Positions 14,228 through 41,923 of a stretch of DNA of 64,000 nt are shown here, in pieces. The stretch covers positions 832,001-896,000 of the forward strand of contig OZ218778.1 of NCBI GenBank assembly GCA_965112635.1, in the 5' to 3' direction. The translations under genes were made by a program, and so were the position numbers. The DNA is from an uncultured bacterium (GTDB lineage: Bacteria > Oederibacteriota > Oederibacteriia > Oederibacteriales > Oederibacteriaceae). Below the pieces are notes generated by a model, which saw only the letters and a program-made list of their open reading frames with translations, ran no database searches and had not been told where the DNA came from. The stretch's first letter is position 1. Every line of letters begins with the position of its first letter.

Positions 14228-14248
14228 TGATTCTCCCTTCTTGTCTTT

Positions 14249-17738: not shown

Positions 17739-17743
17739 GGGAA

Positions 17744-18586: not shown

Positions 18587-18628
18587 TAAATCCTCCTTAA
18601 TATTTGGTATTCGCCTTGGCTGACAGGG

Positions 18629-18694: not shown

Positions 18695-18724
18695 AAAGCA
18701 AGAGGAGATCGCAGCAAAACAAGG

Positions 18725-18762
18725 AAAAAACCCTGTTGGGAGCCAACTCCAACAGGGTTTTT
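18725..18762 (-). terminator. Rho-independent terminator after phoU copy 2 (potentially bidirectional)
   Basis: AAAAAACCCTGTTGG...CCAACAGGGTTTTT inverted repeat with T tails on both strands. Confidence 0.85.
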
Positions 18763-18764
18763 GA

Positions 18765-19433: not shown

Positions 19434-19473
19434 AGAGCTCCTTCCTTTTTGTTAAATTGGCTTGCTTGCTGGG

Positions 19474-20376
19474 CTATCCAAACCTGCCGGTGATATAAGC
19501 TTCGGTGCGTTTGTCCTGGGGAGTGGTGAACAGAATATCTGTCTTGTCAAATTCAATGAGCTGACCCATGAGCATAAAACCGGTCTTGTTGGAGACCCGG
19601 GCGGCCTGCTGCATGTTATGGGTGACGATGACGATGGTGTAGTTGGTCCGCAGTTCGTGCAGCAACTCTTCGATCTTTCCGGTCGAGATAGGGTCCAGGG
19701 CGGAGCAAGGCTCATCCATCAGGATCACTTCAGGTTCGATAGCCAGGGCCCGGGCCACGCAGAGGCGCTGCTGCTGGCCTCCGGAAAGGGCCAGCCCCGG
19801 CTTATTAAGAATATCTTTCACTTCTTCCCAAAGGGCCGCTTTGCGCAGACTTTGCTCCACGACGTCGTCGAGCTTTTTGTCCGAGGCCAGGCCGTTCAAG
19901 CGCAGTCCCACCGCGACATTTTCATAGATGGACATCGTGGGAAATGGGCTCGGCTTTTGGAAGACCATGCCGATACGGCGGCGGACCGTTACAGGGTCCA
20001 CGGATGCCCCAAAAATGCTTTTGCCGTCAAAGATGATGTCGCCTTTAAGGGTAGCGCCCGGGATGGTTTCGTGCATGCGGTTGATGCAGCGGATCAAGGT
20101 GGATTTGCCGCATCCGGAAGGGCCGATCAAGGCGGTGATCTCTCTTTCCCTAATATCCATATTTACAGAGAACAGGGCTTGTTTGGAACCGAACCAAGCG
20201 GATAGCCCGTCGATCTTAATTTTTATCTCCGCGGCCGGATTTTCCAGCTGTTCGCCTGTTTTTTCGACCGGTATTTTGACCGTTAATGTTTCCTTGGTAT
20301 TGTCCATAGGTCCTTCCTTTGGCAAGGCATTGAGGGGCTCCTTTGTCCCGACTTTATCGACCACATTGGTTTCCAT
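19474..20376 (-). CDS. pstB: Phosphate ABC transporter ATPase, canonical motifs
   Basis: [44 protein letters not shown]. Confidence 0.95.
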
Positions 20377-20388
20377 ATTTTTCCTTTT

Positions 20389-21240
20389 CTAAGCGCGTAT
20401 GTATTTAGCTCTTTTGAAAATCGTCCGGGCAATAAGATTGATCGTTATAACGAGGATCAAAAGGACCAAAGCGCCGCTCCAAGCCTGGGCGTGCCATTCA
20501 TTAAATGGAGAGATGGCGTAAGAGTAAACCTGGACCGTCAGCGAGGCGGTTGGCTGCAAAGCGGAAGACCAGAACTGGTTGTTAAAAGCCGTGAACAACA
20601 GAGGGGCGGTTTCGCCGCCAACCCTGGCGATAGAAAGCAGAATACCGGTCAAGATGCCGCTCCAGGCTGTTCTTACCACCACACTAAGAATGACCTTCCA
20701 ACGGGGGACTCCCAGAGCCAGGGCCGATTCGCGGACCGAATTAGGGACCAGTTTGATGAGCTCTTCGGTAGTCCTGGCCATGATGGGCACCATCATAAAG
20801 CTAAGCGCCAAGCCGCCCGCAAGCCCGGAAAAATGCCCCAGAGTCCTGACCGCCCAGGCATAGGTGACGATGCCGGTCACGATGGAGGGGACCCCGGAAA
20901 GCACATTGGAGGTGAACCTGACCAGGAACGCAAAGCGGCTTTCTTTGCCGAATTCCGCCATATAGATACCGGACAATACGCCACAAGGGATGCCAATAAC
21001 ACTGGCAATGAACAGGATGGTCAGGGAACCTACTATGGCGTTGGCCATCCCGCCTCCCGGGGTTCCGACCGGCACAGGCAAATGGGTGATAAAGGCCCAG
21101 TCCAAGCGGCCCCATCCCTGGATGACGATGTAGGTGATCAGGCTGGCTAGGGGCAAAAGGACTATCACGCAGGCCAGGCCGCAGAGAAAAACCATCAGGC
21201 GGTCCAGCAATCTCCGGCGTGCCGCTAAATTGGAGTTCAT
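20389..21240 (-). CDS. pstA: Phosphate ABC transporter permease PstA
   Basis: GGMANAIVGS, LSGVPSIV, RESALALGVPRW, ARVGGETAPLLFT. Confidence 0.95.
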   Translation of the reverse strand: MNSNLAARRRLLDRLMVFLCGLACVIVLLPLASLITYIVIQGWGRLDWAFITHLPVPVGTPGGGMANAIVGSLTILFIASVIGIPCGVLSGIYMAEFGKESRFAFLVRFTSNVLSGVPSIVTGIVTYAWAVRTLGHFSGLAGGLALSFMMVPIMARTTEELIKLVPNSVRESALALGVPRWKVILSVVVRTAWSGILTGILLSIARVGGETAPLLFTAFNNQFWSSALQPTASLTVQVYSYAISPFNEWHAQAWSGALVLLILVITINLIARTIFKRAKYIRA

Positions 21241-22250
21241 GCGGCCCCCTTTGCGGATTGTTGAAATTGCCGGGAGGTCAGCCAGATTAGCATATGAGCG
21301 GCGACGTTCAAAATAAGCGTGATGACCATCAGAAGCAGGCCGATCTCGATAAGAGAGGAAAGATAAAGATTACCGGTGGCTTCGCTGAACTCATTGGCGA
21401 TAACGCTGGCCATACTATGGGCCGGGGCCAGCAGGTTGGGGGAAACCTGGGCTTTGTTGCCGATGACCATGGCGACCGCCATGGTCTCTCCCAGGGCCCG
21501 GCCAAGGGCTAGCATGATCGCTCCAAGCATCCCGGGTTTGGAAGGTTTTAAAACCGCGATCCTGATCATCTCCCAGCGGGTCGTCCCCAGAGCCAACGCG
21601 GATTCCCGCATGGTGTTGGGGACGGTTTCAAAAACCTCGCGTGAGATGGAAACGATAGTAGGCACGATCATGATGGCCAGGATAATGCCGGCTGTAAAAA
21701 GAGAAAGTCCGATAGCCGGTGCGGCAAAGAAGGGTTTGCCGATCCATTGGATAAGAAAAGGACTGACGTGGACCCGTAAAAAGGGCGCTAAAGCGAAAAT
21801 ACCCCACAGGCCATACACCACGCTGGGAATGGCGACCAGGGTTTCGACGAGAAAGGCCAGCGGCTGACGCAGGGGATAGGGCGACAATTCGGTCAGAAAA
21901 AGCGCCACGCAAAGCCCGAGCGGCACAGCCAAAAGAAGGGCCAAAAGAGAAGAGGCGACCGTACCATAAACATAAGGCAGAGCCCCGAAAAGCTCTTTGA
22001 CGGGGTCCCAAGCGGAGCTGAACAGAAAGCCAAAACCAAATTTTTGGACAGCCGGCCAGGCTGAAATGCAAAGCTGCACGGTCATGGCCAGGGCCAGGGC
22101 CAGGATCAAAAGGGCAAAAAAACCGGTGGCAAATCGAAAAATACGGTCCGCCAGGCCTTGTTTGTTGACCCATGAAACCAATGAAAAGAGCGGGAAGGGT
22201 TGTTCGCCCTTCCCGCCCTCTTTTTTTGACACCATTACAGAAGCACTCAC
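21237..22250 (-). CDS. pstC: Phosphate ABC transporter permease PstC
   Basis: WDPV..FGALP, IPSVVYGLWG, ALGTTRWE, GRALGETMAV, IANEFSEA. Confidence 0.95.
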   Translation of the reverse strand: MSASVMVSKKEGGKGEQPFPLFSLVSWVNKQGLADRIFRFATGFFALLILALALAMTVQLCISAWPAVQKFGFGFLFSSAWDPVKELFGALPYVYGTVASSLLALLLAVPLGLCVALFLTELSPYPLRQPLAFLVETLVAIPSVVYGLWGIFALAPFLRVHVSPFLIQWIGKPFFAAPAIGLSLFTAGIILAIMIVPTIVSISREVFETVPNTMRESALALGTTRWEMIRIAVLKPSKPGMLGAIMLALGRALGETMAVAMVIGNKAQVSPNLLAPAHSMASVIANEFSEATGNLYLSSLIEIGLLLMVITLILNVAAHMLIWLTSRQFQQSAKGAA

Positions 22251-22275
22251 CCTTCGTTCCTTTTAAAACAAGGTC

Positions 22276-23310
22276 TTAGTACTTGATCTCGGCTATCTTT
22301 GCTTTTACTTTGGCCACCAGAGAGTCGGGCAGGGGGGCATAATACAGATCTTTTTCCATGCTCATCCCCTTGTCCATAGCCCAGTTCAGATAGCTCACAA
22401 CCGCTTCGCCAATATTGTGGTCCGAGTACTTGGCATAGACCAAGATCCAGGTAAACCCGGCGATCGGGTAGGAATTCTGGCCCGGTGCGTTGGTGAACAT
22501 GATCTTAAAATTCGAGGGCATGTGCGCCAGGGCGCCTGCAGCCGCCTCCGTCACATTATCAATGGTCGCGTCCGGATAGTTGCCGGCACGGTTGCGGATA
22601 CGTGCGTAAGACAGCTTGTTCTGGAGCGCGTAGGCCAGTTCGATATAGCCCAGAGTCCCAGGGACCTGGGTGATGACCCCGGCCACCCCGTCATTACCTT
22701 TGCCGCCGACCCCGACCGGCCAGTTGACCGCGGTGCCATAACCCGCGGTAGAAGCCCATTTGGTGCTCACTTTGGTCAGGTAGTTGGTGAAAATATTGGT
22801 CGTTCCGCTGCCGTCAGAGCGATGGGCCACGTTGATGGCCATATCCGGGAGGTTCATGCCCGGATTAAGGCTCACGAGGGCTTCATCGTTCCATTTGGTG
22901 ATGTTGCCGAGGAAAATATCGGCCAGCACTTTGGGGGTCATCTTGATGCCATCCGCAACTCCCGGCAGGTTGTAGGCCAGGACCACGGCGCCCATAGCTG
23001 CAGGAAGGTGGAATACCGCTTCCCCAACGGCTTTTTCCTGTTCGTCAGTCATATAGGCATCGGTCCCCGCGAAGTTGACGGTGTGGTTGGTCAATTGCTG
23101 GATACCGCCTCCGGAACCAATGGCCTGGTAGTTGATCTGCACACTGGTGTCTTTGTTGTACTCATAACCCCACTTTTGATAGAGGGGAGCAGGAAAAGTA
23201 GCTCCCGCCCCATTGAGCGACACTCCCGCGAAACCCAGGGAGCAGGTCACGATCACGGCCGTGAGGCCCAGGGCTACACCTGCCGCGCCTTTCTTGATTA
23301 AGTTCAACAT
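22276..23310 (-). CDS. pstS: Phosphate ABC transporter substrate-binding protein (E. coli PstS type)
   Basis: GAGATFPAPLY, NYQAIGSGGG, HRSDGSGTT, GKGNDGVA, YPIAGFTW. Confidence 0.96.
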   Translation of the reverse strand: MLNLIKKGAAGVALGLTAVIVTCSLGFAGVSLNGAGATFPAPLYQKWGYEYNKDTSVQINYQAIGSGGGIQQLTNHTVNFAGTDAYMTDEQEKAVGEAVFHLPAAMGAVVLAYNLPGVADGIKMTPKVLADIFLGNITKWNDEALVSLNPGMNLPDMAINVAHRSDGSGTTNIFTNYLTKVSTKWASTAGYGTAVNWPVGVGGKGNDGVAGVITQVPGTLGYIELAYALQNKLSYARIRNRAGNYPDATIDNVTEAAAGALAHMPSNFKIMFTNAPGQNSYPIAGFTWILVYAKYSDHNIGEAVVSYLNWAMDKGMSMEKDLYYAPLPDSLVAKVKAKIAEIKY

Positions 23311-23344
23311 TTTTTCAATCCTCCGATTTGATCAAATTTTTTAA

Positions 23345-24907
23345 CTAGAAGCGATAACGGGTGCCGATGGTATAGAGCGAAGTCTGGCTGATACCGCTTG
23401 TGGCGAACATACCGGCTGCTGTGGAGCTGCCAGCGCTGACTTTGCTGACACCCGCCGAAGTGGTTCCCGTGGAACCGGCCACCGAGCCGCCATCCAGGGC
23501 GCCAGAGAGGTTGCTGTAGCCATAGCAGATATATATATCGCTTTTTTTGCTGAGGTAATAATCAGCAGTGAATAAATAGGTATCACGCACTCCGGAGTCA
23601 CCCTCGTTGATGACATTGCCGGCGAAATCGTTGTAGTAGGAGCAGATGAACTCCCATTCCGTGACCGGTATATATTTGATGGAAGCGTTGATGACCTGGT
23701 CAAAACGATCCTGGGCCGGTGCAGAGGTCTCAGAGTTGGCATTAGCAATGGTGTCTCCGGTGTTAGTGCTGGCGCTACTGGTCACAGCAGCGTAGGATGA
23801 ACCCGGGACCATCTGATCGCCGGTGATGTTCATAAAACCACGGTCAAAGTTGGACTGCATATAGAAACCGTAGAGCTGGATCATGGCGGGCTGAGAGCCG
23901 AGGAGCTGGCCTTTCTGGTCCAGCAGGTTGCATACCATGGCTCCGGCTTCATCATAGTGGTTATGCATGGCGCCGTCATTCTCGTTCTGGAAAGCCGCCA
24001 CGAGTTTGGTCTGCATGGGGTCGCAGTTGTAAGTCAGGCTGGCCGCATACATGCAGTTCCCGTTCAGGTCGCCCGCGGGATTGCCGAACGCGTAATCAGC
24101 GCCGACGATGAACCCGAACCAGTTGCTGCTGATATATTTGACCGACTCATCCCAGCGCAGTCCCGAATAGTTCAGGAAAAAGGTGTTTTCCTCACCATTG
24201 GTGCCGCCGTAGTTGCCCGCTGTATTGCCGCTGCCGGTGGGTTTGAATAAGACCAAGTTGCCGTGGTTGACACCGAACACGTCGCCGAGCCCGATGGCGT
24301 CAGCAAGAGTCCCGTAGGTGCGGCCCATGGTGAGCTGACCCAGGACTGTGTTGTCCAGGCCTACCCAGGCTTGACGGCCGAATAGCTGGCCCTGCTGATC
24401 AATGGCGCCGGTGCCGGGATACAGACCGCCTTCAAGGGTGGCGATAGCTTTGGTGCCATTGCCGACATTTTCCACTGCCCTAATACCCCAGCGGCTGCCT
24501 TGAAAAACGCCTTGTCCGATATCTGTCCTTATTTGGCCGGTCCCCGAATTGGTTATGTCACCACCCCCAACTGATACACCGCCTTTTCCATTGGCGTATG
24601 GATACCCCATGTTCGTGGATGAGGCCACGTTGGAGTCGATTACGCCGTAGATGGAAATACCTTTTAAAATATCTTCGGTGGCGCTTACCCTCTTGGTCAT
24701 ATCGCCAAGCGCCATGCCGACCTCTGCTTTATAGTCATCCAGGCTGGCCTGCAAGTCCGTGTCACTTGGCTTGGCCATATCCTGGGCTGAGACTGCCATC
24801 ACTGTGCCCATGGTCGCGAGCGCCACGAGCATCATCAGAAGCGCCAGGGTTCCTTTCTTGAGAATTTTTGAGGCTGAAGATTGAAACCATTTCTTTTTCT
24901 GACTCAT
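23345..24907 (-). CDS. Outer-membrane porin (Gram-negative general porin family), first gene of pst operon 2
   Basis: Signal peptide, SIYGVID, SRWGIR, LFGRQAWVGL, LTMGR, YYLSKKSDIY, C-terminal Phe (YRF). Confidence 0.82.
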   Translation of the reverse strand: MSQKKKWFQSSASKILKKGTLALLMMLVALATMGTVMAVSAQDMAKPSDTDLQASLDDYKAEVGMALGDMTKRVSATEDILKGISIYGVIDSNVASSTNMGYPYANGKGGVSVGGGDITNSGTGQIRTDIGQGVFQGSRWGIRAVENVGNGTKAIATLEGGLYPGTGAIDQQGQLFGRQAWVGLDNTVLGQLTMGRTYGTLADAIGLGDVFGVNHGNLVLFKPTGSGNTAGNYGGTNGEENTFFLNYSGLRWDESVKYISSNWFGFIVGADYAFGNPAGDLNGNCMYAASLTYNCDPMQTKLVAAFQNENDGAMHNHYDEAGAMVCNLLDQKGQLLGSQPAMIQLYGFYMQSNFDRGFMNITGDQMVPGSSYAAVTSSASTNTGDTIANANSETSAPAQDRFDQVINASIKYIPVTEWEFICSYYNDFAGNVINEGDSGVRDTYLFTADYYLSKKSDIYICYGYSNLSGALDGGSVAGSTGTTSAGVSKVSAGSSTAAGMFATSGISQTSLYTIGTRYRF

Positions 24908-24938: not shown

Positions 24939-24992
24939 AGGTTATCTCCAGACAGTTAGGTTTTTGTTAGAGAACGGTTAAATGCTTGTAAA
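24939..24992 (-). promoter_or_regulatory. Pho-box-like array plus -10 element upstream of the porin-pst operon
   Basis: The - strand reads TTTAC-aagcat-TTAAC-cgttct-CTAAC-aaaaac-CTAAC (11-bp period), then TAACCT. Confidence 0.75.
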
Positions 24993-32210: not shown

Positions 32211-32447
32211 CTACTGGGCTAGGGCGTTCATCCTTATATTTTTCAGGTTTTCTTCGATCCTGAAAATTTTATCCGCATAAACGGTTTTATTGATGTCGAA
32301 CACGACCGGGATGCGTCCTTCGTCGTCCAAGTCCAGCAAAAGATCCTGCAGTTGGGTCATCTGGGATTTGATGCTTTCCAGGACTATCTGCTGAAAATTA
32401 GGACTTTTGGAAATACTCTTAATAATCACCAAATTATCCATATCCAT
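32211..32447 (-). CDS. Small hypothetical protein (78 aa) with its own Pho-box-like promoter
   Basis: Perfect SD GGAGGTG before MDMDNL; helical-looking sequence. Confidence 0.7.
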   Translation of the reverse strand: MDMDNLVIIKSISKSPNFQQIVLESIKSQMTQLQDLLLDLDDEGRIPVVFDINKTVYADKIFRIEENLKNIRMNALAQ

Positions 32448-32473
32448 TGTTTTCACCTCCTTCATTTATAGCA

Positions 32474-32527
32474 ACTATAGGCCGGGGAGGTTAGGGTTGG
32501 TTGAGGGAAAGGTTAGATTGTTGTAAA
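32474..32527 (-). promoter_or_regulatory. Pho-box-like array plus -10 element upstream of the 78-aa ORF
   Basis: The - strand reads TTTAC-aacaat-CTAAC-ctttcc-CTCAA-ccaacc-CTAAC, then TATAGT. Confidence 0.7.
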
Positions 32528-32561: not shown

Positions 32562-34334
32562 TCAAAGGGTTTTGGGCAGGTGGATGAAAAAAGTGCTTCC
32601 CTGTCCAGGGGTGCTTTCCACCGAGACCGTGCCTTTGTGCGCCTGGACAATGTGTTTGACAATGGCCAGCCCCAGGCCGGTGCCGCCCAGTTTCCTGCTC
32701 CGGGCCTTATCCACCCTGTAAAACCGTTCAAATAGATGAGGAAGGTGGGCTGACTCGATGCCTATCCCGCGGTCGCGAACACTGATCAATATCTCCGAGA
32801 CAGTATCCCTGGCCTCCAGTTCGATCCGGGATTCAGGGCCGCTGTATTTGATGGCGTTATCCAAAAGATTGACCACGGCCTGCTCCAGGAGCGGGGCGTT
32901 GATGCCGGCTTCCAGGTCGTCCGGGCATTCCAGTTTTACGGCCACTTTTTGCTCTTTGGCCTTGGTTTCACAAACAGCTTTGGCGGATTCCAGCACCCTT
33001 TTGACCGGAGCATTGACCAGGGGGAGCTGGTCTTTTTGGGATTCCTGTTCGATGCGGGAAAGGTTCAAAAGGTCTTCCACGATGGAGTTCAAGCGGTCTG
33101 ACTGCTTGGCCAAAATATCCAGGAAACGGCCGGCTTCCTGGGGATCGGCCAGGGCGCCTTCCCGCAGGGTCTCCACAAAACCTTTGATGGAAGTGATGGG
33201 GGTTTTGAGCTCGTGGGAGACATTGGCCACGAACTCCTGGCGCATGGTCTCCAGTTTTTTCAGGCGGGTGATGTCGTTCAAAACCACCAGGGCTCCCATA
33301 TCCCGGCCCTGGGCATCCGAGAGCCGCGTGCCATGGCCCTGCAGGACCATATTTTTTTCAAAAAGGGATATTTCATCCTCCGCGGGCAGATTGCTCTTGA
33401 GGGTTTTTTCCACAAAACGGCCAAAATCGGGATTGCGTATTATTTCAGGAAGAGTGGCTGATTGAAAATCGACCGGGCCTATGTCAAAAAGTTCCCGGGC
33501 CGCTTTGTTCACCATCAGGATATGGTTGTGATGGTCCACGGCCACCACGGCCTCGGCCATGCTGGATAACAGCGCTTCCTGTTCCCCTTTTTTTTGGGCG
33601 AGAGCCTGGATGCGGTCCTGCAGCTCCTGCGCCATTTTGTTCATATCCTGGGCCAGGCTGTGGACCTCGGCGATCTTGAAAGAAGGAAGACGGTAGGAAA
33701 GGTCGCCCTGGGCAAAATGCCGGGCCCCCTGCTGGATCTCCTGCAGGGGCTGGGCGATCTTTTGGGAAACTCTGAGGCCCACCAGGGCCGCCAGGGCAGC
33801 CACGACAAGGAAGGTCAAAATGATCTTGAGCTGGATGGAATGGATGGCCTTGTCCAAGTCTCGGACATGCCGGGAGGTGCGGATGATGCCGACGACTTTA
33901 TCGTCTTTCATCAAAGGCAAAGCGGCGTACATCATGGTCTGGTGCACTGTTTTGCTGAAGCGCAGAGAATGACCTGTGTGGCCGGCCAGGGCTTCCATGA
34001 TTTCCGGCCTGGTCGCGTGGTTGTCCATGATCCTGGGATCCTCTTCAGAATCCCCCAGTACCTTGCCTGTGGGCAGGATCACGGTGACGCGGGTGCCGGT
34101 AGACTGGCCGATCTGTTTGCAGAGGATGTCCAAAAATTTCGCGTGGGCGGTGTCGAGCTTGGCGGAGACCTGATAGGAGATGATGCGGCTGCTGTTCTCC
34201 AGCTCCAAGGTCACCCGTTCCAAGAATAACCGGCTCAAAGCGGCAGAGGTGAACCAGGCCAGGACCAACAGGCTGATGAGGATAAGGACCAGGTAGGTCG
34301 GGTAAAGCTGCCAGATAAAATGTTTTTTACGCAC
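32562..34334 (-). CDS. phoR: Phosphate regulon sensor histidine kinase (Cache-like, HAMP, PAS, HisKA, HATPase)
   Basis: MDNHATRPEI, RQEFVANVSHELKTPITSIKGFVETL, NLLDNAIKYS, FERFYRVDKARSR..GGTGLGL. Confidence 0.93.
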   Translation of the reverse strand: MRKKHFIWQLYPTYLVLILISLLVLAWFTSAALSRLFLERVTLELENSSRIISYQVSAKLDTAHAKFLDILCKQIGQSTGTRVTVILPTGKVLGDSEEDPRIMDNHATRPEIMEALAGHTGHSLRFSKTVHQTMMYAALPLMKDDKVVGIIRTSRHVRDLDKAIHSIQLKIILTFLVVAALAALVGLRVSQKIAQPLQEIQQGARHFAQGDLSYRLPSFKIAEVHSLAQDMNKMAQELQDRIQALAQKKGEQEALLSSMAEAVVAVDHHNHILMVNKAARELFDIGPVDFQSATLPEIIRNPDFGRFVEKTLKSNLPAEDEISLFEKNMVLQGHGTRLSDAQGRDMGALVVLNDITRLKKLETMRQEFVANVSHELKTPITSIKGFVETLREGALADPQEAGRFLDILAKQSDRLNSIVEDLLNLSRIEQESQKDQLPLVNAPVKRVLESAKAVCETKAKEQKVAVKLECPDDLEAGINAPLLEQAVVNLLDNAIKYSGPESRIELEARDTVSEILISVRDRGIGIESAHLPHLFERFYRVDKARSRKLGGTGLGLAIVKHIVQAHKGTVSVESTPGQGSTFFIHLPKTL

Positions 34335-34337: not shown

Positions 34338-35033
34338 TCAGTCCTTTAATTTATAGCCGATGCCCCTGACCGTCTCGATCAATTTGCCTGAGGAGCCCAG
34401 TTTTTTCCTAAGGCCGACGATCTGGACATCCACGGACCTTTCCGTGACCGCGTAATCCGCGCCTTTGACCCCGTCCACGATCTGGTAGCGCGTAAAAACA
34501 CGGCCGGGCCGGCGGGCAAAATACTCCAGGAGCTTGAACTCGGTGAAGGTCAGGTCGATGAGTTTGTTTTTGACCATGATCTCATGGCGGGAGGGGTCGA
34601 TGACCAGGTCGTGGACTTTGACCGTGGTGGATTCCTCCGGGGAGGCAGTTGTTTTTTTCCTCCGTAATACCGCCTTGATCCTGGCCAGGAGCACGCGGGG
34701 GCTGAAAGGCTTGGTGATATAGTCGTCCGCTCCCATTTCCAGCCCGGTCACGATGTCCGCTTCCTCGCCTTTGGCGGTCACCATCATGATGCTGATACCT
34801 TTGGTTTTTGGCTCGTTTTTGAGGGTCCGGCAGATCTCCAGGCCGTCCAGGCCGGGGAGCATCAGGTCCAGGAGGATCAGATCGGGCATCTTGGTTCTGG
34901 CTGTCTGGAGAGCCGCGTCACCCGCTGTTTCGGTGAAGACCTGATACCCTTCCTTGACGACATTGTATTTCATCAATTCCAGGATATCCTCGTCGTCTTC
35001 CACGATGAATATTTTTTCTTTGGGGTCGGACAT
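34338..35033 (-). CDS. phoB: Phosphate regulon response regulator, OmpR/PhoB family
   Basis: VEDD, LLDLMLPG, GADDYITKPFS, RSVDVQIVGLRKKL, ETVRGIGY; directly upstream of phoR. Confidence 0.9.
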   Translation of the reverse strand: MSDPKEKIFIVEDDEDILELMKYNVVKEGYQVFTETAGDAALQTARTKMPDLILLDLMLPGLDGLEICRTLKNEPKTKGISIMMVTAKGEEADIVTGLEMGADDYITKPFSPRVLLARIKAVLRRKKTTASPEESTTVKVHDLVIDPSRHEIMVKNKLIDLTFTEFKLLEYFARRPGRVFTRYQIVDGVKGADYAVTERSVDVQIVGLRKKLGSSGKLIETVRGIGYKLKD

Positions 35034-36625: not shown

Positions 36626-36638
36626 TTTAAAAACCCTT

Positions 36639-38048: not shown

Positions 38049-38145
38049 AATCCCTCCCTTCTCTACTTGCCAGGTTTGTTTTTTTACCACTTTATATTTC
38101 GCAAGCCGTGGGAAGAGTTACCCTACACCCTTACTAAACAACTTT

Positions 38146-38302: not shown

Positions 38303-38698
38303 TTAAGCAGCAGCGGGCTGAACAGGAGGAACGGGTTTAGCGACCTTTGCCGGGGCAGCTTTTTTTGGTTTGCTCTTTACGGGTTTTTTAATTTTTATTT
38401 TGCGGATGGTTTTTTCAATGACCTTGTGGACCCTGACCAGGTCTTTTAAACGTCCTTTGTTGGGTTTTAATTTGAGGGAATCGGATTTTTTGATCAGGTA
38501 AGCCACGGCTTTTTTGCTCAATCCCGCGTTATCATCCAAGGCATTTTTTTGGGAGAGGAGCAAGGCGAGCTTGACCATATCCGCGTTCAATTTGACCGAA
38601 AAATGTTCCATAGCCTCGTTCACCTGGGTCCGCAGCAGCTTGACGGATTTCAGGGCCTCCAGGTATCTATTAACTTTTTTCTGTTCTTTGTTTTTCAT
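38303..38698 (-). CDS. Lys-rich hypothetical protein with a Lys/Ala/Pro tail, last gene of the ppx operon
   Basis: RBS AAGGAGG; LKPNKGRLKDL core; KKPVKSKPKKAAPAKVAKP tail. Confidence 0.8.
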   Translation of the reverse strand: MKNKEQKKVNRYLEALKSVKLLRTQVNEAMEHFSVKLNADMVKLALLLSQKNALDDNAGLSKKAVAYLIKKSDSLKLKPNKGRLKDLVRVHKVIEKTIRKIKIKKPVKSKPKKAAPAKVAKPVPPVQPAAA

Positions 38699-38728
38699 TT
38701 TAATGCCTCCTTTTAGAATTTTTGTTCC

Positions 38729-39427
38729 CTATATATAAAATTCCTCGAGTACGGCTTCAATTTTGGACCTTAGTTCAGTGTTGATGGTCTTGACCGAATG
38801 GTTGGCGTTGATCACGGTAAGGCCGTATTCTTCCTGCAGTTCAGCGAACTTTTTCCTGACCATTTTCTGGTATTTGATCATGCTCTCGAACCAGTCCCGG
38901 GAAAGCCCCAGGTCCATGCCCGACTCCCAATAATCGAGGGTGGAGTTGGACCTTAAGGTCCGGTCAATGAGCATATTTTGGGAGGCCGAGAGCAAAAAGA
39001 CCGCGTCAGGTACCAGGGCCATGGAATAGAGCGACTGGTTCCAATCCTTGTCCGCGCCCCTGACCATGTCCCTGACCATGAGCGTAAAAATATACCGGTC
39101 AGCCAGGACCACGCAGCCCGCGTCCATGGCCGGGATGATCTTGTTCTCCAGCTGATCGTAAAAATCCGTGGCGTAAAAAAGAGACATGGTCCTGGGCGAA
39201 AGCACGTTGCCTCTCTTGGCTTCGTTGAGCTCTTCGCTCACCAGGAACGACCGTTTGAGCCCCGTCTCCACCACGGCATACCCTTTTTCCTCTAGCCATT
39301 GGCAGAGAAGACGGATATGGGTGGACCGGCCTGTGGAGTCCATGCCTTCGATCACGATCAACGCCCCTTTGAGTTTGGATGGGTTCACTCCGGCCGGGGG
39401 TTTTACAAAGAACTTTTTACTTTTCAT
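38729..39427 (-). CDS. Thymidylate-kinase-like protein with a degenerate P-loop
   Basis: LIVIEGMDSTGRST (K>R), LADRY, LDYWESGMDL; ATGA-coupled to the upstream paralog. Confidence 0.85.
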   Translation of the reverse strand: MKSKKFFVKPPAGVNPSKLKGALIVIEGMDSTGRSTHIRLLCQWLEEKGYAVVETGLKRSFLVSEELNEAKRGNVLSPRTMSLFYATDFYDQLENKIIPAMDAGCVVLADRYIFTLMVRDMVRGADKDWNQSLYSMALVPDAVFLLSASQNMLIDRTLRSNSTLDYWESGMDLGLSRDWFESMIKYQKMVRKKFAELQEEYGLTVINANHSVKTINTELRSKIEAVLEEFYI

Positions 39428-40110
39428 CGCGCACCTCTTTTGTGATGTTCGGATATGTCAATCTTTTCCGTGATGATCTTCCTGACCTTGGTTTGTTGCG
39501 TGTTGATATTCTCCGTGGCATCGATCTCAACAAAACCGTATTCTTTGGACATTTTGTTGTACTGCTCCATAATTTTCCCCTGGAAAATCTTGAAGCTCTC
39601 GTTGACGTCAGGGGAAAAGTTCAGGTCCATTCCTGCCTCAAAATATTTCAATTCCGGCCGGCCTTCCAGGATGCGGCCCAGGGCTGTGTCCAGGGGAAGC
39701 TTGAAATACAGGATGATATCCGGCACCTTGGCGAATCCGTAGAGTTTCCTAAGCCAGGCCGGGTCGCAGCCCCTGACGGTATCCCGGGCAAAAGAGGTGA
39801 AGATGTACCTGTCGCAGAGGACAATATAGCCACCCTGGAGCATGGGATGGATCTGCCTTTCATACCTGTCGGCAAAATCCGTCGCGTGGATCAGGCTGAA
39901 AGTGGTCGGGGTGAGCAGGTGTCTTTTTTTGGCTTTTTTGGTGGCTTCCTTGACCAGTTCGCTGGAATTCCACTCCGTAAAGAACACCCGGTACCCCAAG
40001 CCCGAAAGCCATTTGTGCAAAAGGTACATCTGGGTCGATTTTCCAGACCCATCCAACCCTTCCACGGCGATCAATTTACCGGGGATCTTATTTTGTTCTT
40101 TTTCAGCCAT
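39424..40110 (-). CDS. Thymidylate-kinase-like protein with an intact P-loop
   Basis: LIAVEGLDGSGKST, TEWNSS (not the canonical TREP), LCDRY, LKYFEAGMDL. Confidence 0.88.
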   Translation of the reverse strand: MAEKEQNKIPGKLIAVEGLDGSGKSTQMYLLHKWLSGLGYRVFFTEWNSSELVKEATKKAKKRHLLTPTTFSLIHATDFADRYERQIHPMLQGGYIVLCDRYIFTSFARDTVRGCDPAWLRKLYGFAKVPDIILYFKLPLDTALGRILEGRPELKYFEAGMDLNFSPDVNESFKIFQGKIMEQYNKMSKEYGFVEIDATENINTQQTKVRKIITEKIDISEHHKRGAR

Positions 40111-40126
40111 AGTTTTTCACCGCCCT

Positions 40127-41692
40127 TTATTTTTTTAGCTTAACTTTCATTTTGTAAACCCTGTTGAACATCTTTGATTTTTTTTCAAAAGACCAGTCGT
40201 CCAATAGAGTTTTACCGATGGTCAGGGGCTTGATCTGGACCTGGGAGCCTTTGACCCGGACCTTGACGTCCCGCACTCTCTGTAAATGGTCCTTGTCCAG
40301 GGAATCCGCGATGCGCAGTATCGGGGAAAGATGGAGCACGGTATCCCTGTCGTTGGAACTGAGCTTCATAAACAGAGGGTGGGAAGCTTGCGGTTCGCTT
40401 TTGCGGTGATAGCGCGCGATGTTGGCCGCCACGCACATCTGCCTGGAGGATAAACTCGGCAGCTCAGACTGGGAAAGAATATACAGTGAATGTTTATGAT
40501 GGCTCTTATAGTTTATGAAAGTCCCTACATCATGGAGCATGGAAGCGGCGAGGAGTATCTTGCGGTCCTCATCGGACAATCCATGGACGAACTTCAACTG
40601 GTCAAATATAGAAAGGGACAGGCGGGCCACATGGCGGTTATGAGGTTCCTCAAAGTTGTACCTGCGTCCCAGATTGACGGCTGCGGAAAAAAGCAGCGCT
40701 TCCTGCTGTTTGCTCCGCTCTTTGTGGGTGAACAGGTCGTCGATGATGTCGTAGATGATCCCTTCTTTGAGTCCCACGAAAGGAACGAGGATGGAGGGCG
40801 AATGGTAGAGTGAGGCAATATGTTCATAGACCATGGCGGCGGGCAGGATCACATCCGCCCGGTCTTCCTTGAGCGCAAGTTTTTTCATGCGCTGAGCTAT
40901 GGTCATTTTGGAAAGCTTTTGGACCAGGTGCCTGAGCTGGGAGGTCTGGATCACGCCTGTACCGTTCCGACCTGTTTTGACTTTGACCAGATTGGCGATC
41001 TTTTCAATATTGCCTCCGGTCGCGATCAGGGAAGTGGAACGAACAGCGTGCGGGATCTTTATGATAGAGATGAAATCAGAGAGGATCTTTTTCATTTTTT
41101 CCGGATTGTTCTTGACCCGGTGGAACTCCTCCAGCAACCTTACGGCACCCACCCCTCTTGTTTCCGTCCACTGGATGCCTGAGGCATGGATCTGGGAGAT
41201 TTCAGCGCTGCCGCCGCCCAGGTCGGTCAGGATCCAGTCTTTTTTGGCCAGGGGGACTTTTTTTTGGACCGCCAGATAAACCAGCCTGGCCTCTTCGGAC
41301 CCGGAGATGATTTCTATCTTCATCCCCAGGTTCAGCTGGACCTCCTCCACAAATAACATCCCATTGCTGGCTTCGCGCACCGCGCTGGTGGCCACGGCCC
41401 GGTAATGGTGGATGTCCATGTTTTTCATTTTGAGCTGGAACGTGGAAAGCACGGCGATGGCATTTTCTATAGTGGCTTTATTGAGGGCTCCCGCCGAAAA
41501 CACGCTTTGGCCCAATCTGAGGGGCGCTCTTTCCGAATAGATAATGTTGTGGTTGTTGTGATCATAGAATTCGGTGGCCAGGAACCTGATGGCGTTGGAC
41601 CCGATGTCAATGCTGGCCACCCGGATGGGAAAGAAAAGACCGGTGCTTTGAAATTTGAACATCCTGGGCAATATCGCTTTGTGATGTTTCAT
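40127..41692 (-). CDS. ppx: Exopolyphosphatase Ppx/GppA with a C-terminal HD domain
   Basis: IDIGSNAIR, ATSAVREASN, ISGSEEARL, DLGGGSAE, RADVI, GLKEG, LHDVG, ARYHRK. Start uncertain (41698, 41692 or 41662). Confidence 0.93.
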   Translation of the reverse strand: MKHHKAILPRMFKFQSTGLFFPIRVASIDIGSNAIRFLATEFYDHNNHNIIYSERAPLRLGQSVFSAGALNKATIENAIAVLSTFQLKMKNMDIHHYRAVATSAVREASNGMLFVEEVQLNLGMKIEIISGSEEARLVYLAVQKKVPLAKKDWILTDLGGGSAEISQIHASGIQWTETRGVGAVRLLEEFHRVKNNPEKMKKILSDFISIIKIPHAVRSTSLIATGGNIEKIANLVKVKTGRNGTGVIQTSQLRHLVQKLSKMTIAQRMKKLALKEDRADVILPAAMVYEHIASLYHSPSILVPFVGLKEGIIYDIIDDLFTHKERSKQQEALLFSAAVNLGRRYNFEEPHNRHVARLSLSIFDQLKFVHGLSDEDRKILLAASMLHDVGTFINYKSHHKHSLYILSQSELPSLSSRQMCVAANIARYHRKSEPQASHPLFMKLSSNDRDTVLHLSPILRIADSLDKDHLQRVRDVKVRVKGSQVQIKPLTIGKTLLDDWSFEKKSKMFNRVYKMKVKLKK

Positions 41693-41698
41693 GAGCAC

Positions 41699-41753
41699 AG
41701 TATAAGCGCTATGTGTTTATGGGCAAGTTAGAATTATGTTAGGAGTAGGTTAG
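41699..41753 (-). promoter_or_regulatory. Pho-box-like array plus -10 element upstream of the ppx operon
   Basis: The - strand reads CTAAC-ctactc-CTAAC-ataatt-CTAAC (three perfect repeats, 11-bp period), then TATACT. Confidence 0.8.
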
Positions 41754-41923
41754 TTCCAGAATGGCCGGGGGTTGCGTATGTGTTCGCAGCGGGGACTTGT
41801 TCCCTTACAGGAACCTAGCTTGACAGTCCTGGCGGACCCGGTTAACCTGCATCCATAGTTTCCAAAAGTCTGTTGGATAGGGTGGATCCAACCACCATTC
41901 AACTTTTAACCGGGAAGGTATAT

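What the first reader, a model, noticed from the sequence alone, without database searches (positions are those of the whole stretch)
38303..41753. Pho-boxed operon of ppx, an active/inactive TMK-like pair and a basic protein: candidate non-canonical polyphosphate kinase system
Seen: one operon of ppx, two translationally coupled thymidylate-kinase-fold paralogs and a Lys-rich protein, behind three perfect 11-bp-phased CTAAC repeats. One paralog keeps the P-loop (EGLDGSGKST). The other has it altered (EGMDSTGRST, Lys>Arg). Both lack the canonical TMK TREP/SxAYQ motifs and share a Y(F/W)E(A/S)GMDL motif. No ppk1 or ppk2 is in the window. Known: PPK2 enzymes share the TMK-like P-loop fold. From memory, and not verifiable here, a heteromeric polyP kinase made of two TMK-annotated genes was described in Sulfolobus. 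Inference: a catalytic plus regulatory heteromer synthesises or uses polyP here, is packaged with its phosphatase and a granule protein, and is under PhoB control.
Basis: partly seen in the sequence, partly recalled or inferred. Interest (0 to 1): 0.85.

Follow-up and report, generated by a model that had tools for sequence, protein, structure and literature searches.

The report
Bacterial PPK3 polyphosphate kinase operon
This is a bacterial copy of the recently described two-subunit "PPK3" polyphosphate kinase, encoded next to its phosphatase and a small uncharacterised basic protein, and it appears to be switched on by the cell's phosphate-starvation regulator.

Summary
A minus-strand operon runs ppx (41698-40127), TMK-like A (40110-39424), TMK-like B (39427-38729, ATGA overlap with A) and a basic protein (38698-38303). 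It sits behind three CTAAC repeats in 11-bp phase.

A is a clear cPPK3 orthologue: E=1e-60 to S. tokodaii STK_15430, against about 5e-12 to true Tmk. B belongs to the partner clade. In all 81 bacterial pairs examined, B has Walker-A Lys replaced by Arg and keeps DRY. The paper describes a different lesion for rPPK3, loss of the DRX Arg.

The genome has a canonical tmk elsewhere and no PPK1, PPK2 or CHAD match.

The phased NTAAC triple occurs only twice in the 2.88-Mb genome, here and upstream of the porin-like/pstS operon 17 kb away. A PhoR/PhoB-like pair lies between the two sites.

The basic protein belongs to a small, Pfam-less family found directly after B in other phyla.

Verdict: a new bacterial member of a known family, with some undescribed details. 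No biochemistry was possible.

The parts
41727..41753 (-). Three CTAAC direct repeats at 11-bp spacing. Candidate Pho-box-type operator for an OmpR/PhoB-family regulator.
   Evidence: Seen in the sequence. It is the only exact triple in the genome. It is one of only two NTAAC-N6-NTAAC-N6-NTAAC sites genome-wide, against 0.046 expected.
41699..41726 (-). Sigma-70-like promoter TTGCCC-16 nt-TATACT. It abuts the third repeat. The -10 element ends 1 nt before GTG 41698 and 6 nt before ATG 41692, so the mRNA may be leaderless.
   Evidence: Consensus scan, 9 of 12 matches. This is a consensus match only. The leaderless reading is inference.
40127..41698 (-). ppx, an exopolyphosphatase of the Ppx/GppA family. 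The start codon is uncertain: GTG 41698, ATG 41692 or ATG 41662.
   Evidence: Pfam PF02541 1.5e-45, PF21447 1.4e-26, HD 7e-09. TIGR03706 scores 228.5 bits, below its 307-bit cut-off.
39424..40110 (-). Protein A, a cPPK3-type catalytic subunit. It is a dTMPK-fold P-loop kinase with GSGKST and DRY intact.
   Evidence: phmmer against PDB: STK_15430 (2plr/5h70) E=1e-60; best canonical Tmk 5.6e-12. K24 and D100-R101-Y102 are invariant in 37 of 37 orthologues and 81 of 81.
38729..39427 (-). Protein B, the partner (rPPK3-like) subunit. Walker-A Lys is replaced by Arg (GRST) and DRY is retained. It is translationally coupled to A by an ATGA overlap.
   Evidence: phmmer against PDB: STK_15430 2e-36; canonical Tmk 2.4e-10. 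R34 and DRY are invariant in 36 of 36 and 81 of 81. The B-type clade has SH-aLRT 97. The co-fold with A scores 0.66 against a best control of 0.40.
38303..38698 (-). Basic protein of 131 aa. It has a three-helix core with an invariant KPxKG..DL motif and a Lys/Pro/Ala-rich disordered C-terminal tail. It belongs to a small uncharacterised family found directly after B.
   Evidence: Strong AAGGAGG ribosome-binding site. No Pfam or NCBIfam hit. The family is in 9 of 80 loci. 43 database proteins match and none has a Pfam domain. AF2 pLDDT is 76. No PDB fold match at E<=0.001.
24955..24981 (-). Second phased triple (TTAAC, CTAAC, CTAAC). It lies 47 nt upstream of a 520-aa porin-like ORF that heads a pstS-pstC-pstA-pstB operon.
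   Evidence: Porin_1 is a weak hit (2.4e-4, below cut-off).
34338..35033 (-). PhoB-like OmpR-family response regulator. It is the candidate binder of the repeats.
   Evidence: Best TIGR02154 hit in the genome: 250.8 bits, below the 296-bit cut-off, first of 5 hits. Response_reg plus Trans_reg_C domains.
32562..34334 (-). PhoR-like histidine kinase (HAMP, PAS, HisKA, HATPase). It lies immediately downstream of the regulator gene.
32490..32516 (-). Third, weaker phased site (CTAAC, CTCAAC-type; 2 mismatches). It lies 24 nt upstream of an 84-aa ORF at 32211..32465(-).
   Evidence: The ORF has no Pfam family.

Best explanation
The locus is a bacterial PPK3 operon.

**The enzyme.** Protein A is the catalytic subunit of a dTMP-kinase-fold polyphosphate kinase. 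It transfers phosphate reversibly between ATP/ADP and polyP. Protein B is an ancient paralogue that has lost the Walker-A lysine (Arg in its place) while keeping the DRY arginine. It most likely acts as a non-catalytic partner that binds A and raises its activity, as Saci_2020 does for Saci_2019 in Sulfolobus.

**The other operon genes.** Ppx, encoded first, releases Pi from polyP ends. The last gene encodes a helical protein with a Lys-rich tail. It may bind polyP, but this step is the weakest.

**Regulation.** The operon is driven by a sigma-70-type promoter. Its -35 region abuts three 11-bp-phased CTAAC repeats. The nearby PhoB-like regulator probably binds these under phosphate limitation. 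The same element precedes the high-affinity phosphate transporter operon.

**Role in the cell.** No PPK1 or PPK2 was found, so PPK3 would be this organism's only polyP kinase.

**Shown here.** Homology, gene order, conservation, motif statistics, and absence of the other PPK families by profile search.

**Inferred.** Enzyme activity, heteromer stoichiometry, which regulator binds the repeats, and the role of the basic protein.
For: 1. **Sequence placement.** A hits S. tokodaii STK_15430, named the cPPK3 homologue in PMC12995831, at E=1e-60 over 209 residues. The best canonical Tmk is 5.6e-12. B hits the same chain at 2e-36, against 2.4e-10 for Tmk.
2. **Published biochemistry.** Saci_2019 makes polyP and has no dTMPK activity. 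Saci_2020 is inactive but stimulates it, and the complex is a2b2 (sections 4 and 7).
3. **Own genome.** A canonical tmk scores 171 bits and carries TKEPGGT and AYQG. There is no match to PF03976, PF02503, PF13090 or PF05235.
4. **Pair conservation.** A is followed by a second paralogue in 80 of 80 loci from at least 14 named bacterial phyla.
5. **Catalytic motifs.** A has Walker Lys plus DRY in 81 of 81. B has Walker Arg plus DRY in 81 of 81.
6. **Tree.** B-type proteins form one clade (SH-aLRT 97, 104 of 144 rows). The A and B subtrees show the same groupings of loci.
7. **Fusions.** There are natural A-B fusions, and fusions to Ppx domain III/HD, NUDIX and pyrophosphatase.
8. **Neighbourhoods.**
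   - ppx is within the flank in 35 of 80 loci.
   - The closest relative has pstB-phoU-ppx-A-B.
   - A Bacteroidota locus has PhoB/PhoR, then CHAD-SixA-A-B-Ppx.
9. **Co-fold of A and B.**
   - Score 0.66; best of 3 controls 0.40.
   - The mark was reached by 58 of 80 solved complexes and 2 of 110 mismatched pairs. These counts hold only roughly because my own alignments were used.
   - The runs agree in at least 93% of contacts, and partner pLDDT is at least 85.
   - Tmk homodimers are solved, so the pass may reflect likeness.
10. **Operator.**
   - The NTAAC x3 element at 11-bp phase occurs exactly twice in the genome (expected 0.046), upstream of ppx and of the porin-like/pstS operon, both in the gene's orientation.
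   - At up to 2 mismatches, 3 of 6 distinct genomic sites lie within 17 kb of this Pho island.
   - An Ignavibacteriota locus has TTAAC x3 in the same phase 56 nt upstream of its SixA-A-B-Ppx operon. It is the only triple in 766 kb of related loci.
11. **Phylum survey.** Across 99 genomes of the phylum, PPK3 is in 36 and PPK1 in 11, with no overlap.
Against: - No enzyme activity, complex or transcript was measured, so everything functional rests on homology to one archaeal enzyme.
- B does not show the lesion the paper gives for rPPK3 (DRX Arg replaced). DRY is kept in 81 of 81. B could therefore retain some activity or ligand binding and be more than a scaffold.
- I could not obtain Saci_2020 to test orthology directly.
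- One co-fold control scored 0.40 (A replaced, B kept). The predicted interface uses A 52-85/113-126 and B 62-95/126-136. From recalled Tmk structures, not tested here, this looks like the usual Tmk dimer face. The published model instead has an r-r core.
- ppx linkage is absent in 45 of 80 loci, 32 of them with adequate flanks, mostly Chthoniobacterales.
- Chthoniobacter flavus also carries PPK1 and two PPK2. 25 of 36 PPK3 genomes in the phylum also carry PPK2. So 'sole PPK' is not general.
- The PhoB-like regulator scores below the TIGR02154 cut-off, and three other OmpR-family regulators exist in the genome.
- No phased repeat was found upstream of the PlcP-like gene or in the phoB/glycosyltransferase intergenic region.
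- The related-locus operator was seen in only 1 of 85 loci scanned.
Confidence: 0.78

Rival explanations
1. The pair works mainly in one direction, as a polyP-dependent ADP (nucleotide) kinase. Together with Ppx it mobilises stored polyP during phosphate or energy stress, and polyP is made by some other, unrecognised enzyme.
For: SaPPK3 strongly favours ATP formation from ADP and polyP (abstract of PMC12995831). Here the operon is co-encoded with the degrading enzyme Ppx. It sits behind an element shared with the phosphate-scavenging pst operon, which suits induction when Pi is scarce.
Against: No PPK1 or PPK2 match exists in a 96.9%-complete single-contig genome. If polyP is made at all, PPK3 is the only recognisable candidate. 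SaPPK3 is reversible and does make polyP at high ATP/ADP. PPK3 and PPK1 never co-occur in the 99 genomes of the phylum, whereas PPK3 and PPK2 often do. This fits PPK3 filling the PPK1 (synthase) niche.
Confidence: 0.3
2. B is not a dead regulatory subunit. It is a second active or ligand-sensing kinase-like protein, and the conserved Arg at the Walker position with intact DRY serves binding of polyP, a nucleotide or another phosphate ester.
For: Arg (never a random residue) and DRY are kept in 81 of 81 B proteins. 43 columns are invariant across 36 B orthologues, which shows strong purifying selection on the active-site region. Among 150 representatives the Walker position reads R in 77 and C in 6.
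Against: From general knowledge of P-loop NTPases, Lys-to-Arg at this position usually abolishes phosphoryl transfer. The archaeal counterpart is inactive alone. Fewer basic residues are invariant in B than in A.
Confidence: 0.3
3. A and B are ordinary nucleotide or deoxynucleotide monophosphate kinases, as the annotation 'dTMP kinase' says, and have nothing to do with polyP.
For: Both pass the gathering score of PF02223. They narrowly pass TIGR00041 (86.9 and 87.2 bits against a cut-off of 83.25). Public sources name the relatives 'dTMP kinase'.
Against: A canonical tmk with the dTMP-binding motifs is elsewhere in the genome. A and B lack those motifs. The closest characterised relative lacks dTMPK activity. 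Linkage to ppx, PhoU, SixA, CHAD and PhoB/R is recurrent.
Confidence: 0.04
4. The CTAAC repeats are bound by a regulator other than PhoB, or are a chance or structural repeat, so the operon is not phosphate-regulated.
For: No binding or expression data exist. The regulator next door scores below the PhoB equivalog cut-off. Other presumed Pho genes in the island lack the motif, namely the PlcP-like gene and the phoB/glycosyltransferase intergenic region.
Against: The only two phased triples in 2.88 Mb precede ppx and the porin-like/pstS operon. None of 100 window shuffles reached the observed count. From general knowledge, direct repeats at 11-bp phase abutting a weak -35 are the standard layout of PhoB/OmpR-family activator sites. 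The closest relative places ppx-A-B directly after pstB-phoU.
Confidence: 0.2

Closest known systems
SaPPK3 of Sulfolobus acidocaldarius (Saci_2019 cPPK3 + Saci_2020 rPPK3), in the operon sixA-ppx-cPPK3-rPPK3-CHAD (PMC12995831)
   Same: - Two adjacent dTMPK-fold paralogues sit next to ppx.
- One paralogue has intact P-loop and DRX motifs.
- A canonical tmk lies elsewhere in the genome.
- There is no PPK1 or PPK2.
- A heteromer is predicted.
   Different: - This organism is a bacterium.
- The partner subunit keeps the DRX Arg and instead has Walker-A Lys replaced by Arg.
- There is no CHAD in the genome, and SixA was not seen in this operon.
- A KPxKG-motif basic protein occupies the last position.
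- A Pho-box-like operator is present.
- Activity is untested.
STK_15430 of Sulfurisphaera tokodaii (PDB 2plr, 4nzy, 4rzx, 5h70), deposited as 'probable thymidylate kinase'
   Same: It is the best solved relative of both A (E=1e-60) and B (2e-36). It shares the TEWNSS, HATDF(A/S)DRYER, DRYI(F/Y)T and EAG(M/A)D blocks with A.
   Different: It is an archaeal thermophile protein solved alone. No partner-bound structure is available.
Canonical dTMP kinase (Tmk; TIGR00041/PF02223)
   Same: Same fold, P-loop and DRY/DRH motif. A and B pass the Pfam model.
   Different: The dTMP-binding motifs (TxEPGGT, AYQG) are replaced. The similarity is much weaker (E about 1e-10 to 1e-12). The genome has its own true Tmk at 2794692-2795285.
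Two-domain PPK2 enzymes (for example P. aeruginosa PA3455), as discussed in PMC12995831
   Same: An active P-loop kinase module is paired with a degenerate one. The enzyme is a polyP-nucleotide phosphotransferase.
   Different: They belong to a different family (PF03976, not matched here). The modules are fused rather than on two chains. The paper states that the ADP and polyP binding sites are switched.
PhoB/Pho box regulation of phosphate-starvation operons. E. coli pst and cyanobacterial three-repeat Pho boxes are recalled from general knowledge and were not fetched here.
   Same: Direct repeats at 11-bp periodicity sit next to or over the -35 region. The element is shared with the pst operon, and a PhoR/PhoB-like pair is nearby.
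   Different: The core here is (C/T)TAAC, not CTGTCAT. Binding is untested.
CHAD proteins and the histone-H1-like AlgP of P. aeruginosa. For AlgP, only the title and abstract start of PMC9239181 were seen in a search listing.
   Same: They are small accessory proteins tied to polyP. AlgP has a Lys/Pro/Ala-rich tail like residues 100-131 here.
   Different: There is no sequence or fold match to either. The conserved part here is a three-helix core with KPxKG..DL. The Lys-rich tail is N-terminal in Acidobacteriota, C-terminal here and absent in Sumerlaeota.

Membership tests
PPK3 catalytic subunit (cPPK3) | dTMPK-fold protein in the clade of Saci_2019/STK_15430, separate from canonical Tmk | tested here: met
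   A: E=1e-60 to STK_15430 against 5.6e-12 to the best Tmk. In the tree it groups with the Lys-bearing A-type proteins, apart from the genome's own Tmk.
PPK3 catalytic subunit (cPPK3) | Intact P-loop Lys and DRX Arg | tested here: met
   GSGKST and DRY are present. They are invariant in 37 of 37 and 81 of 81.
PPK3 catalytic subunit (cPPK3) | dTMP-binding residues of Tmk not conserved | tested here: met
   TEWNSS and TSFARD stand where the genome's own Tmk has TKEPGGT and ATLAYQG. This is a motif-level comparison only.
PPK3 catalytic subunit (cPPK3) | Reversible ATP:polyP phosphotransferase activity and no dTMPK activity | not testable with these tools
   This needs purified protein.
PPK3 regulatory subunit (rPPK3) | Second dTMPK-fold paralogue encoded next to cPPK3 | tested here: met
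   ATGA overlap with A. Conserved in 80 of 80 loci.
PPK3 regulatory subunit (rPPK3) | Arg of the DRX motif replaced (the paper's explanation of inactivity, section 7) | tested here: not met
   B keeps D110-R111-Y112, in 36 of 36 and 81 of 81. Instead the Walker-A Lys is Arg. The paper's Fig. S16 is in supplements I could not open. Whether Saci_2020 also lacks the Walker Lys is unknown to me.
PPK3 regulatory subunit (rPPK3) | Orthology to Saci_2020 | not tested
   No tool gave me the Saci_2020 sequence. One representative (P0311) has Walker Lys and EQ in place of DR. It sits at the base of the B-type clade, but its organism could not be learned.
PPK3 holoenzyme | c and r subunits bind each other (a2b2 in Sulfolobus) | tested here: inconclusive
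   A 1:1 co-fold passes: 0.66 against a best control of 0.40 (58 of 80 solved complexes and 2 of 110 mismatched pairs reach the mark, roughly). Natural A-B fusions exist. Stoichiometry was not modelled, and likeness to solved Tmk dimers may explain the pass.
PPK3 operon context | Neighbourhood of polyP/phosphate genes (ppx, SixA, CHAD, PstS/C, NUDIX) | tested here: met
   ppx is in the same operon. In relatives: ppx in 35 of 80; PhoU, SixA, CHAD and PhoB/R in named loci. CHAD is absent from this genome.
PPK3 operon context | Canonical Tmk elsewhere, with PPK1/PPK2 usually absent | tested here: met
Canonical dTMP kinase | TxEPGGT and (S/T)xxAYQ substrate-binding motifs, and best similarity to characterised Tmk | tested here: not met
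   The motifs are absent. Tmk structures score 50 and 26 orders of magnitude worse than STK_15430 for A and B respectively.
PPK2 | Match to PF03976 | tested here: not met
   A and B have no PF03976 hit at E<=0.01, and there is none in the genome.
Pho regulon member (PhoB-type operator) | Direct repeats at about 11-bp phase at or near -35, shared with pst genes | tested here: met
Pho regulon member (PhoB-type operator) | Bound by phosphorylated PhoB and induced by Pi limitation | not testable with these tools
   No RNA data were usable. This needs EMSA and expression assays.
CHAD polyP-granule protein | Match to PF05235 | tested here: not met
   The basic protein has no Pfam hit. Two relatives have none at E<=0.1. 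No CHAD match exists in the genome.

The most novel reading that the evidence does not exclude
Bacterial PPK3 may be a distinct and widespread form of the enzyme, not a rare offshoot of an archaeal one. This reading has three parts.

- **The partner subunit.** It belongs to an ancient clade defined by an invariant Walker-A Lys-to-Arg (sometimes Cys) change with the DRY arginine kept. This would make it a ligand-sensing pseudokinase rather than a simple scaffold.
- **A new accessory family.** A previously undescribed KPxKG-motif protein family with movable Lys-rich tails would be a dedicated polyP-binding partner that stands in for CHAD.
- **Regulation and role.** In lineages such as this one, the enzyme is the sole polyP kinase and is directly wired into the Pho regulon through a (C/T)TAAC x3 operator.
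Probability: 0.3. Interest if true: 0.62.

Novelty: new member of a known kind. Interest (0 to 1): 0.45.

Why it matters
PolyP is universal, yet many bacteria lack PPK1 and PPK2, so their route to polyP is unknown. The PPK3 paper describes the family as mainly crenarchaeal with 'a few bacteria'.

**The pair is common in bacteria.**
- One narrow pattern scan found 231 species genomes. The 80 loci kept from it span at least 14 named phyla.
- It is in 36 of 99 genomes of this phylum.
- More than 8000 clusters at 90% identity match A at E<=1e-10, because the scored set was capped at 8000.

**In this phylum it is mutually exclusive with PPK1**.

**The locus gives testable handles:**
- a complete genome where PPK3 is the only candidate PPK;
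- a defined operator shared with pst;
- a partner subunit with a different lesion from the one published;
- a new accessory protein family.

Cultured carriers exist, for example Chthoniobacter flavus Ellin428 (locus L016).

The locus also shows that thousands of 'dTMP kinase' annotations are probably wrong.

Tried and rejected
- **Saci_2020 not obtained.** No tool returned the Saci_2020 sequence, so orthology of B to archaeal rPPK3 was not tested directly.
  - I tried to name basal representatives through the listing of cluster members (switched off).
  - I then tried the ESM Atlas on P0311. Its neighbours are Acidobacteriota and Nitrososphaerota clusters, which is not decisive.
- **Basic protein.**
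  - tblastn with the window protein alone found 0 of 80 loci.
  - A small HMM found 9 loci. Three of them were seeds of the model.
  - Foldseek against PDB gave nothing at E<=0.001.
  - The Atlas gave scores under 0.8.
  - No Pfam, NCBIfam or CHAD match was found.
- **Operator in relatives.** Only 1 of 85 loci has a phased NTAAC triple. 11 other FCB-group (Bacteroidota, Ignavibacteriota, Chlorobiota and allied) loci inspected by eye show none.
- **Other Pho-island promoters.** The regions upstream of the PlcP-like gene, the phoB/glycosyltransferase intergenic region and DUF2254 have no phased repeat.
- **Terminators.** The scan gave no more hits than the shuffles (6 found against a mean of 6.1), and none lies after the basic gene. 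The 3' end of the operon is therefore undefined, and read-through into the PlcP-like gene is possible.
- **Expression.** No RNA holder was listed.
- **Rejected idea: 'PPK3 genomes mostly lack PPK2'.** In this phylum 25 of 36 PPK3 genomes carry PPK2.
- **Tree limits.** The tree is a quick LG+G4 search rooted on a single long-branched outgroup. 43 of the 150 representatives were left out for length (under 195 or over 300 aa). I did not run an AU test.
- **Supplements.** The supplements of PMC12995831 (Figs S15-S19, Data S1) were not opened. They may already list these bacterial pairs and their motifs.

Full report
**What is there**

On the minus strand of the window lie four close-packed genes.
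- ppx is at 41698..40127 (523 aa). Pfam gives Ppx-GppA 1.5e-45, Ppx domain III 1.4e-26 and HD 7e-09.
- Protein A is at 40110..39424 (228 aa).
- Protein B is at 39427..38729 (232 aa).
- A basic protein is at 38698..38303 (131 aa).

The junctions fit one operon.
- ppx and A are 16 nt apart.
- A's TGA stop overlaps B's ATG as ATGA.
- The basic gene starts 30 nt after B, behind an AAGGAGG ribosome-binding site.

A and B both match the thymidylate-kinase model PF02223 (2.1e-21 and 2.2e-21). A carries EGLDGSGKST and B carries EGMDSTGRST. Both carry DRY. Both replace the dTMP-binding blocks that the genome's own Tmk shows (TKEPGGT, ATLAYQG) and share YFEAGMDL / YWESGMDL.

Upstream, at 41753..41727(-), is CTAACctactcCTAACataattCTAAC.

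**The remembered precedent exists**

A full-text search found Hofmann et al., J Biol Chem 2026 (PMC12995831), and its preprint. I read the abstract and sections 4, 7 and 8 and searched the rest for terms. The paper reports the following.
[quoted passage not shown] They lie in an operon with sixA, ppx and a CHAD gene.
- They encode a heteromeric (a2b2) reversible polyP kinase named PPK3.
- Saci_2019 (cPPK3) makes polyP and has no dTMPK activity.
- Saci_2020 (rPPK3) is inactive alone but raises activity about tenfold.
- rPPK3s lack the Arg of the DRX motif.
- The crystal structure 5h70 (S. tokodaii STK_15430) is a cPPK3 homologue.
- Genomes with PPK3 have a canonical Tmk elsewhere and mostly lack PPK1 and PPK2.
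- The family is 'mainly' crenarchaeal with 'a few taxonomically scattered bacteria'.

The preprint says only a few bacterial homologues were found, many from Candidatus organisms or Acidobacteriota.

**Placement of A and B**

Against all PDB sequences:
- A hits STK_15430 (2plr/4nzy/4rzx/5h70) at E=1e-60 over residues 11-219. The best canonical Tmk reaches 5.6e-12.
- B hits the same chain at 2e-36. The best canonical Tmk reaches 2.4e-10.

The window's genome is one contig of 2,876,006 bp with 51.3% GC, scored 96.9% complete.
- It has a canonical tmk at 2794692-2795285 (171 bits) and a weak fourth paralogue that looks like a deoxynucleoside kinase.
- Profile searches found no PPK2 (PF03976), no PPK1 (PF02503, PF13090) and no CHAD (PF05235). 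The control genomes responded as expected in each search.

**Conservation of the pair**

A pattern scan of one genome per species found 282 candidate stretches, of which 231 encode a relative of A. The best 80 loci were kept. All are bacterial, and their record titles name at least 14 phyla:

| Phylum | Loci |
|---|---|
| Verrucomicrobiota | 38 |
| Bacteroidota | 9 |
| Acidobacteriota | 7 |
| Ignavibacteriota | 4 |
| Candidatus Sumerlaeota | 3 |
| Planctomycetota | 3 |
| Pseudomonadota | 3 |
| Chlorobiota | 3 |
| Six further named phyla | 1 each |
| No phylum named | 4 |

- In 80 of 80 loci, A is followed on the same strand by a second paralogue.
- Across these loci plus the window, all 81 A proteins have Walker Lys and DRY. 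All 81 B proteins have Walker Arg and DRY.
It is a different lesion from the one the paper gives for rPPK3.

A search of 1.84 billion representatives with B found 5932 proteins at E<=1e-3, 1133 at E<=1e-10 and 156 at E<=1e-30. Among the best 150, the Walker position reads as follows:

| Walker-position residue | Representatives |
|---|---|
| R | 77 |
| K (A-type and others) | 30 |
| C | 6 |
| Mixed, in two-domain proteins | 6 |
| No motif found (mostly fragments) | 31 |

I built a quick maximum-likelihood tree of 144 rows. The rows were 107 of the 150 representatives (43 dropped for length), 6 halves of three fusion proteins, A and B from 14 loci, the window's A and B, and the genome's own Tmk as outgroup.
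- It puts all B-type proteins in one clade of 104 rows (SH-aLRT 97). All A-type proteins lie outside it.
- The same locus groupings recur in the A and B subtrees. This points to one old duplication followed by co-inheritance.
- The tree is a short search with a single long outgroup, so deep branches should be read cautiously.

**Physical and functional linkage**

Natural fusions exist among the representatives.
- Two TMK-like domains in one chain: P0164, P0221, P0248. The C-terminal halves fall in the B clade. The N-half of P0164 groups with A-type proteins. The N-halves of P0221 and P0248 sit near the tree base outside the B clade.
- Two TMK-like domains plus Ppx domain III/HD: P0169, P0201, P0208.
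- TMK plus HD: P0293.
- NUDIX plus TMK: P0276, P0285.
- Pyrophosphatase plus TMK: P0313.

The co-fold of A with B used my own alignments of 37 and 36 rows.
- It scored 0.66, and the best of 3 controls scored 0.40.
- That mark was reached by 58 of 80 solved complexes and 2 of 110 mismatched pairs. These counts hold only roughly with my alignments.
- The runs agree in at least 93% of contacts, and the partner's pLDDT is at least 85.
- Tmk homodimers are solved and the predicted contact uses the helices of that region, so the pass may reflect likeness. It supports binding but does not show it.

ppx lies within the flank in 35 of 80 loci.
- 31 of these are adjacent on the same strand: 15 upstream of A and 16 downstream of B.
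- The other 45 loci show none. 32 of them have adequate flanks, and these are mostly Chthoniobacterales.

Named neighbourhoods (with PhoB/PhoR):
- The closest relative (L005, 82% identical A) has pstB-phoU-ppx-A-B.
- A Bacteroidota locus (L061) has PhoB/PhoR-like genes, then CHAD, a SixA-type histidine phosphatase, A, B and Ppx. This is the same gene content as the Sulfolobus operon.
- Chthoniobacter loci show unrelated neighbours.

**Distribution against the other PPKs**

In the 99 genomes held for this phylum:

| Feature | Genomes of 99 |
|---|---|
| PPK3 (A at E<=1e-40) | 36 |
| PPK1 | 11 |
| PPK2 | 36 |
| PPK3 and PPK1 together | 0 |
| PPK3 and PPK2 together | 25 |
| PPK3 alone, including this genome | 11 |

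- Relatives are not independent, so this is a pattern, not a test.
- The pattern fits the paper's idea that PPK3 replaces PPK1 in place. It does not fit 'neither PPK1 nor PPK2' for this phylum.
- Chthoniobacter flavus has PPK1, two PPK2 and the pair.

**Regulation**

The window is a phosphate island.
- PhoU is at 13562-14227.
- There are two pst transporter gene sets. One is headed by a 520-aa porin-like ORF and PstS (24907..19474).
- A PhoR-like kinase is at 32562-34334.
- A PhoB-like regulator is at 34338-35033. It is the best TIGR02154 hit in the genome but scores below the cut-off.
- A GT28-type glycosyltransferase and a PlcP-like phosphoesterase are at 35396-38090.
- A PAP2 acid phosphatase at 41873-42625 is transcribed divergently from ppx.

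Genome-wide motif counts:
- NTAAC-N6-NTAAC-N6-NTAAC occurs exactly twice (expected 0.046 from the pentamer's frequency). One site is upstream of ppx. The other is at 24981..24955(-), 47 nt upstream of the porin-like/pstS operon. Both are in the orientation of the gene.
- With up to 2 mismatches to CTAAC x3 there are 6 distinct sites in the genome. 3 of them lie within 17 kb of this island.
- In the window, 4 matches were found against 0.06 expected, and none of 100 shuffles reached 4.

A sigma-70-like promoter, TTGCCC-16-TATACT, abuts the third repeat. Its -10 element ends 6 nt before ATG 41692, so the message may be leaderless. This last point is inference.

In an Ignavibacteriota locus (L066), TTAAC x3 at the same phase lies 56 nt upstream of SixA-A-B-Ppx. 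It is the only such triple in 766 kb of related loci. The other loci did not show it.

From general knowledge, direct repeats at 11-bp phase next to a weak -35 are the usual layout of PhoB/OmpR-family activator sites. I did not test which regulator binds.

**The basic protein**

It has no Pfam or NCBIfam match.
- An HMM built from it and three Acidobacteriota ORFs found the family in 9 of 80 loci: 7 Acidobacteriota and 2 Sumerlaeota. Three of these loci were seeds of the model.
- In the own genome the HMM hit only this gene. In every locus with a hit, the gene lies directly after B.
- The ten-row alignment shows an invariant KPxKG..DL motif in a core of about 90 residues. The Lys-rich tail is N-terminal in Acidobacteriota, C-terminal here and missing in Sumerlaeota.
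- A profile search of 5.8 billion proteins returned 43 hits. None has a Pfam domain. All named hits are 'hypothetical', except one labelled thioesterase domain-containing.
- AlphaFold gives three helices (2-52, 62-74, 84-100) and a disordered tail, with mean pLDDT 76.
- Foldseek found no PDB match at E<=0.001.
- A role at polyP is plausible from position and charge, by analogy with CHAD and AlgP, but nothing here shows it.

**Verdict**

Every computational test I could run bears this out. It matches a family published in 2026, so the core is not new.

As far as I could see without the paper's supplements, these points are new:
- the breadth of the family in bacteria;
- the fixed Walker-Arg/DRY-kept state of the bacterial partner subunit;
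- the KPxKG accessory family;
- the (C/T)TAAC x3 operator shared with pst.

No biochemical or expression evidence was available.

The search of earlier findings and the listing of cluster members were closed, and no RNA run was listed.

Noticed in passing
window 32490-32516 (-) and ORF 32211-32465 (-): A third phased CTAAC-type site (2 mismatches) lies just after the PhoR-like gene and 24 nt upstream of an 84-aa ORF with no Pfam family. It may be a small Pho-regulated gene.
   Followed up: partly
window 23345-24907 (-): A 520-aa ORF with a signal-like N-terminus heads the pstS operon. It has only a weak Porin_1 hit (2.4e-4, below cut-off). It may be a phosphate-selective porin of an undescribed type.
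   Followed up: partly
window 35396-38090: A GT28-type glycosyltransferase gene lies tail-to-tail with a PlcP-like phosphoesterase gene (PF04185) next to the operon. From general knowledge, this resembles the PlcP/Agt lipid-remodelling pair used under phosphate starvation. No phased repeat was seen upstream of either.
   Followed up: partly
window 13562-22250: There are two pst transporter gene sets in the same island. One has two pstB-like genes in tandem (14249-15082 and about 15009-15749), followed by phoU.
   Followed up: no
whole genome: The pentamer CTAAC is rare: 1562 copies on both strands of 2.88 Mb. Uniform base use would predict about 5600.
   Followed up: no
genome 998027-998042 (-): A two-repeat CTAAC-N6-CTAAC site lies 36 nt upstream of a 243-aa secreted, beta-barrel-like ORF. 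It may be another target of the same regulator.
   Followed up: no
genome 489543 (-) and 1220019 (+): The same stretch of about 85 nt (containing TTAACTCTAACTTAAC) occurs at two distant places. It is a dispersed repeat of unknown nature.
   Followed up: no
proteins P0169, P0201, P0208, P0293, P0276, P0285, P0313: These are natural fusions of PPK3-type TMK-like domains. The partners are the HD/domain III part of Ppx, NUDIX hydrolases and an inorganic pyrophosphatase domain.
   Followed up: partly
G021:C19:10274-13217 (same phylum): A PPK2 gene lies within about 0.9 kb downstream of the B gene, so PPK3 and PPK2 lie close together there.
   Followed up: no
L016:6426-9287 (Chthoniobacter flavus): The gene after the A-B pair encodes a TOTE conflict-system primase/helicase protein (AEP-TOTE 1.7e-95). 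It is unrelated to phosphate metabolism.
   Followed up: no
L064 and L070 (Bacteroidota MAGs): ppx downstream of B matches in two or three separate tblastn pieces. This suggests a frameshift or assembly error in those records.
   Followed up: no
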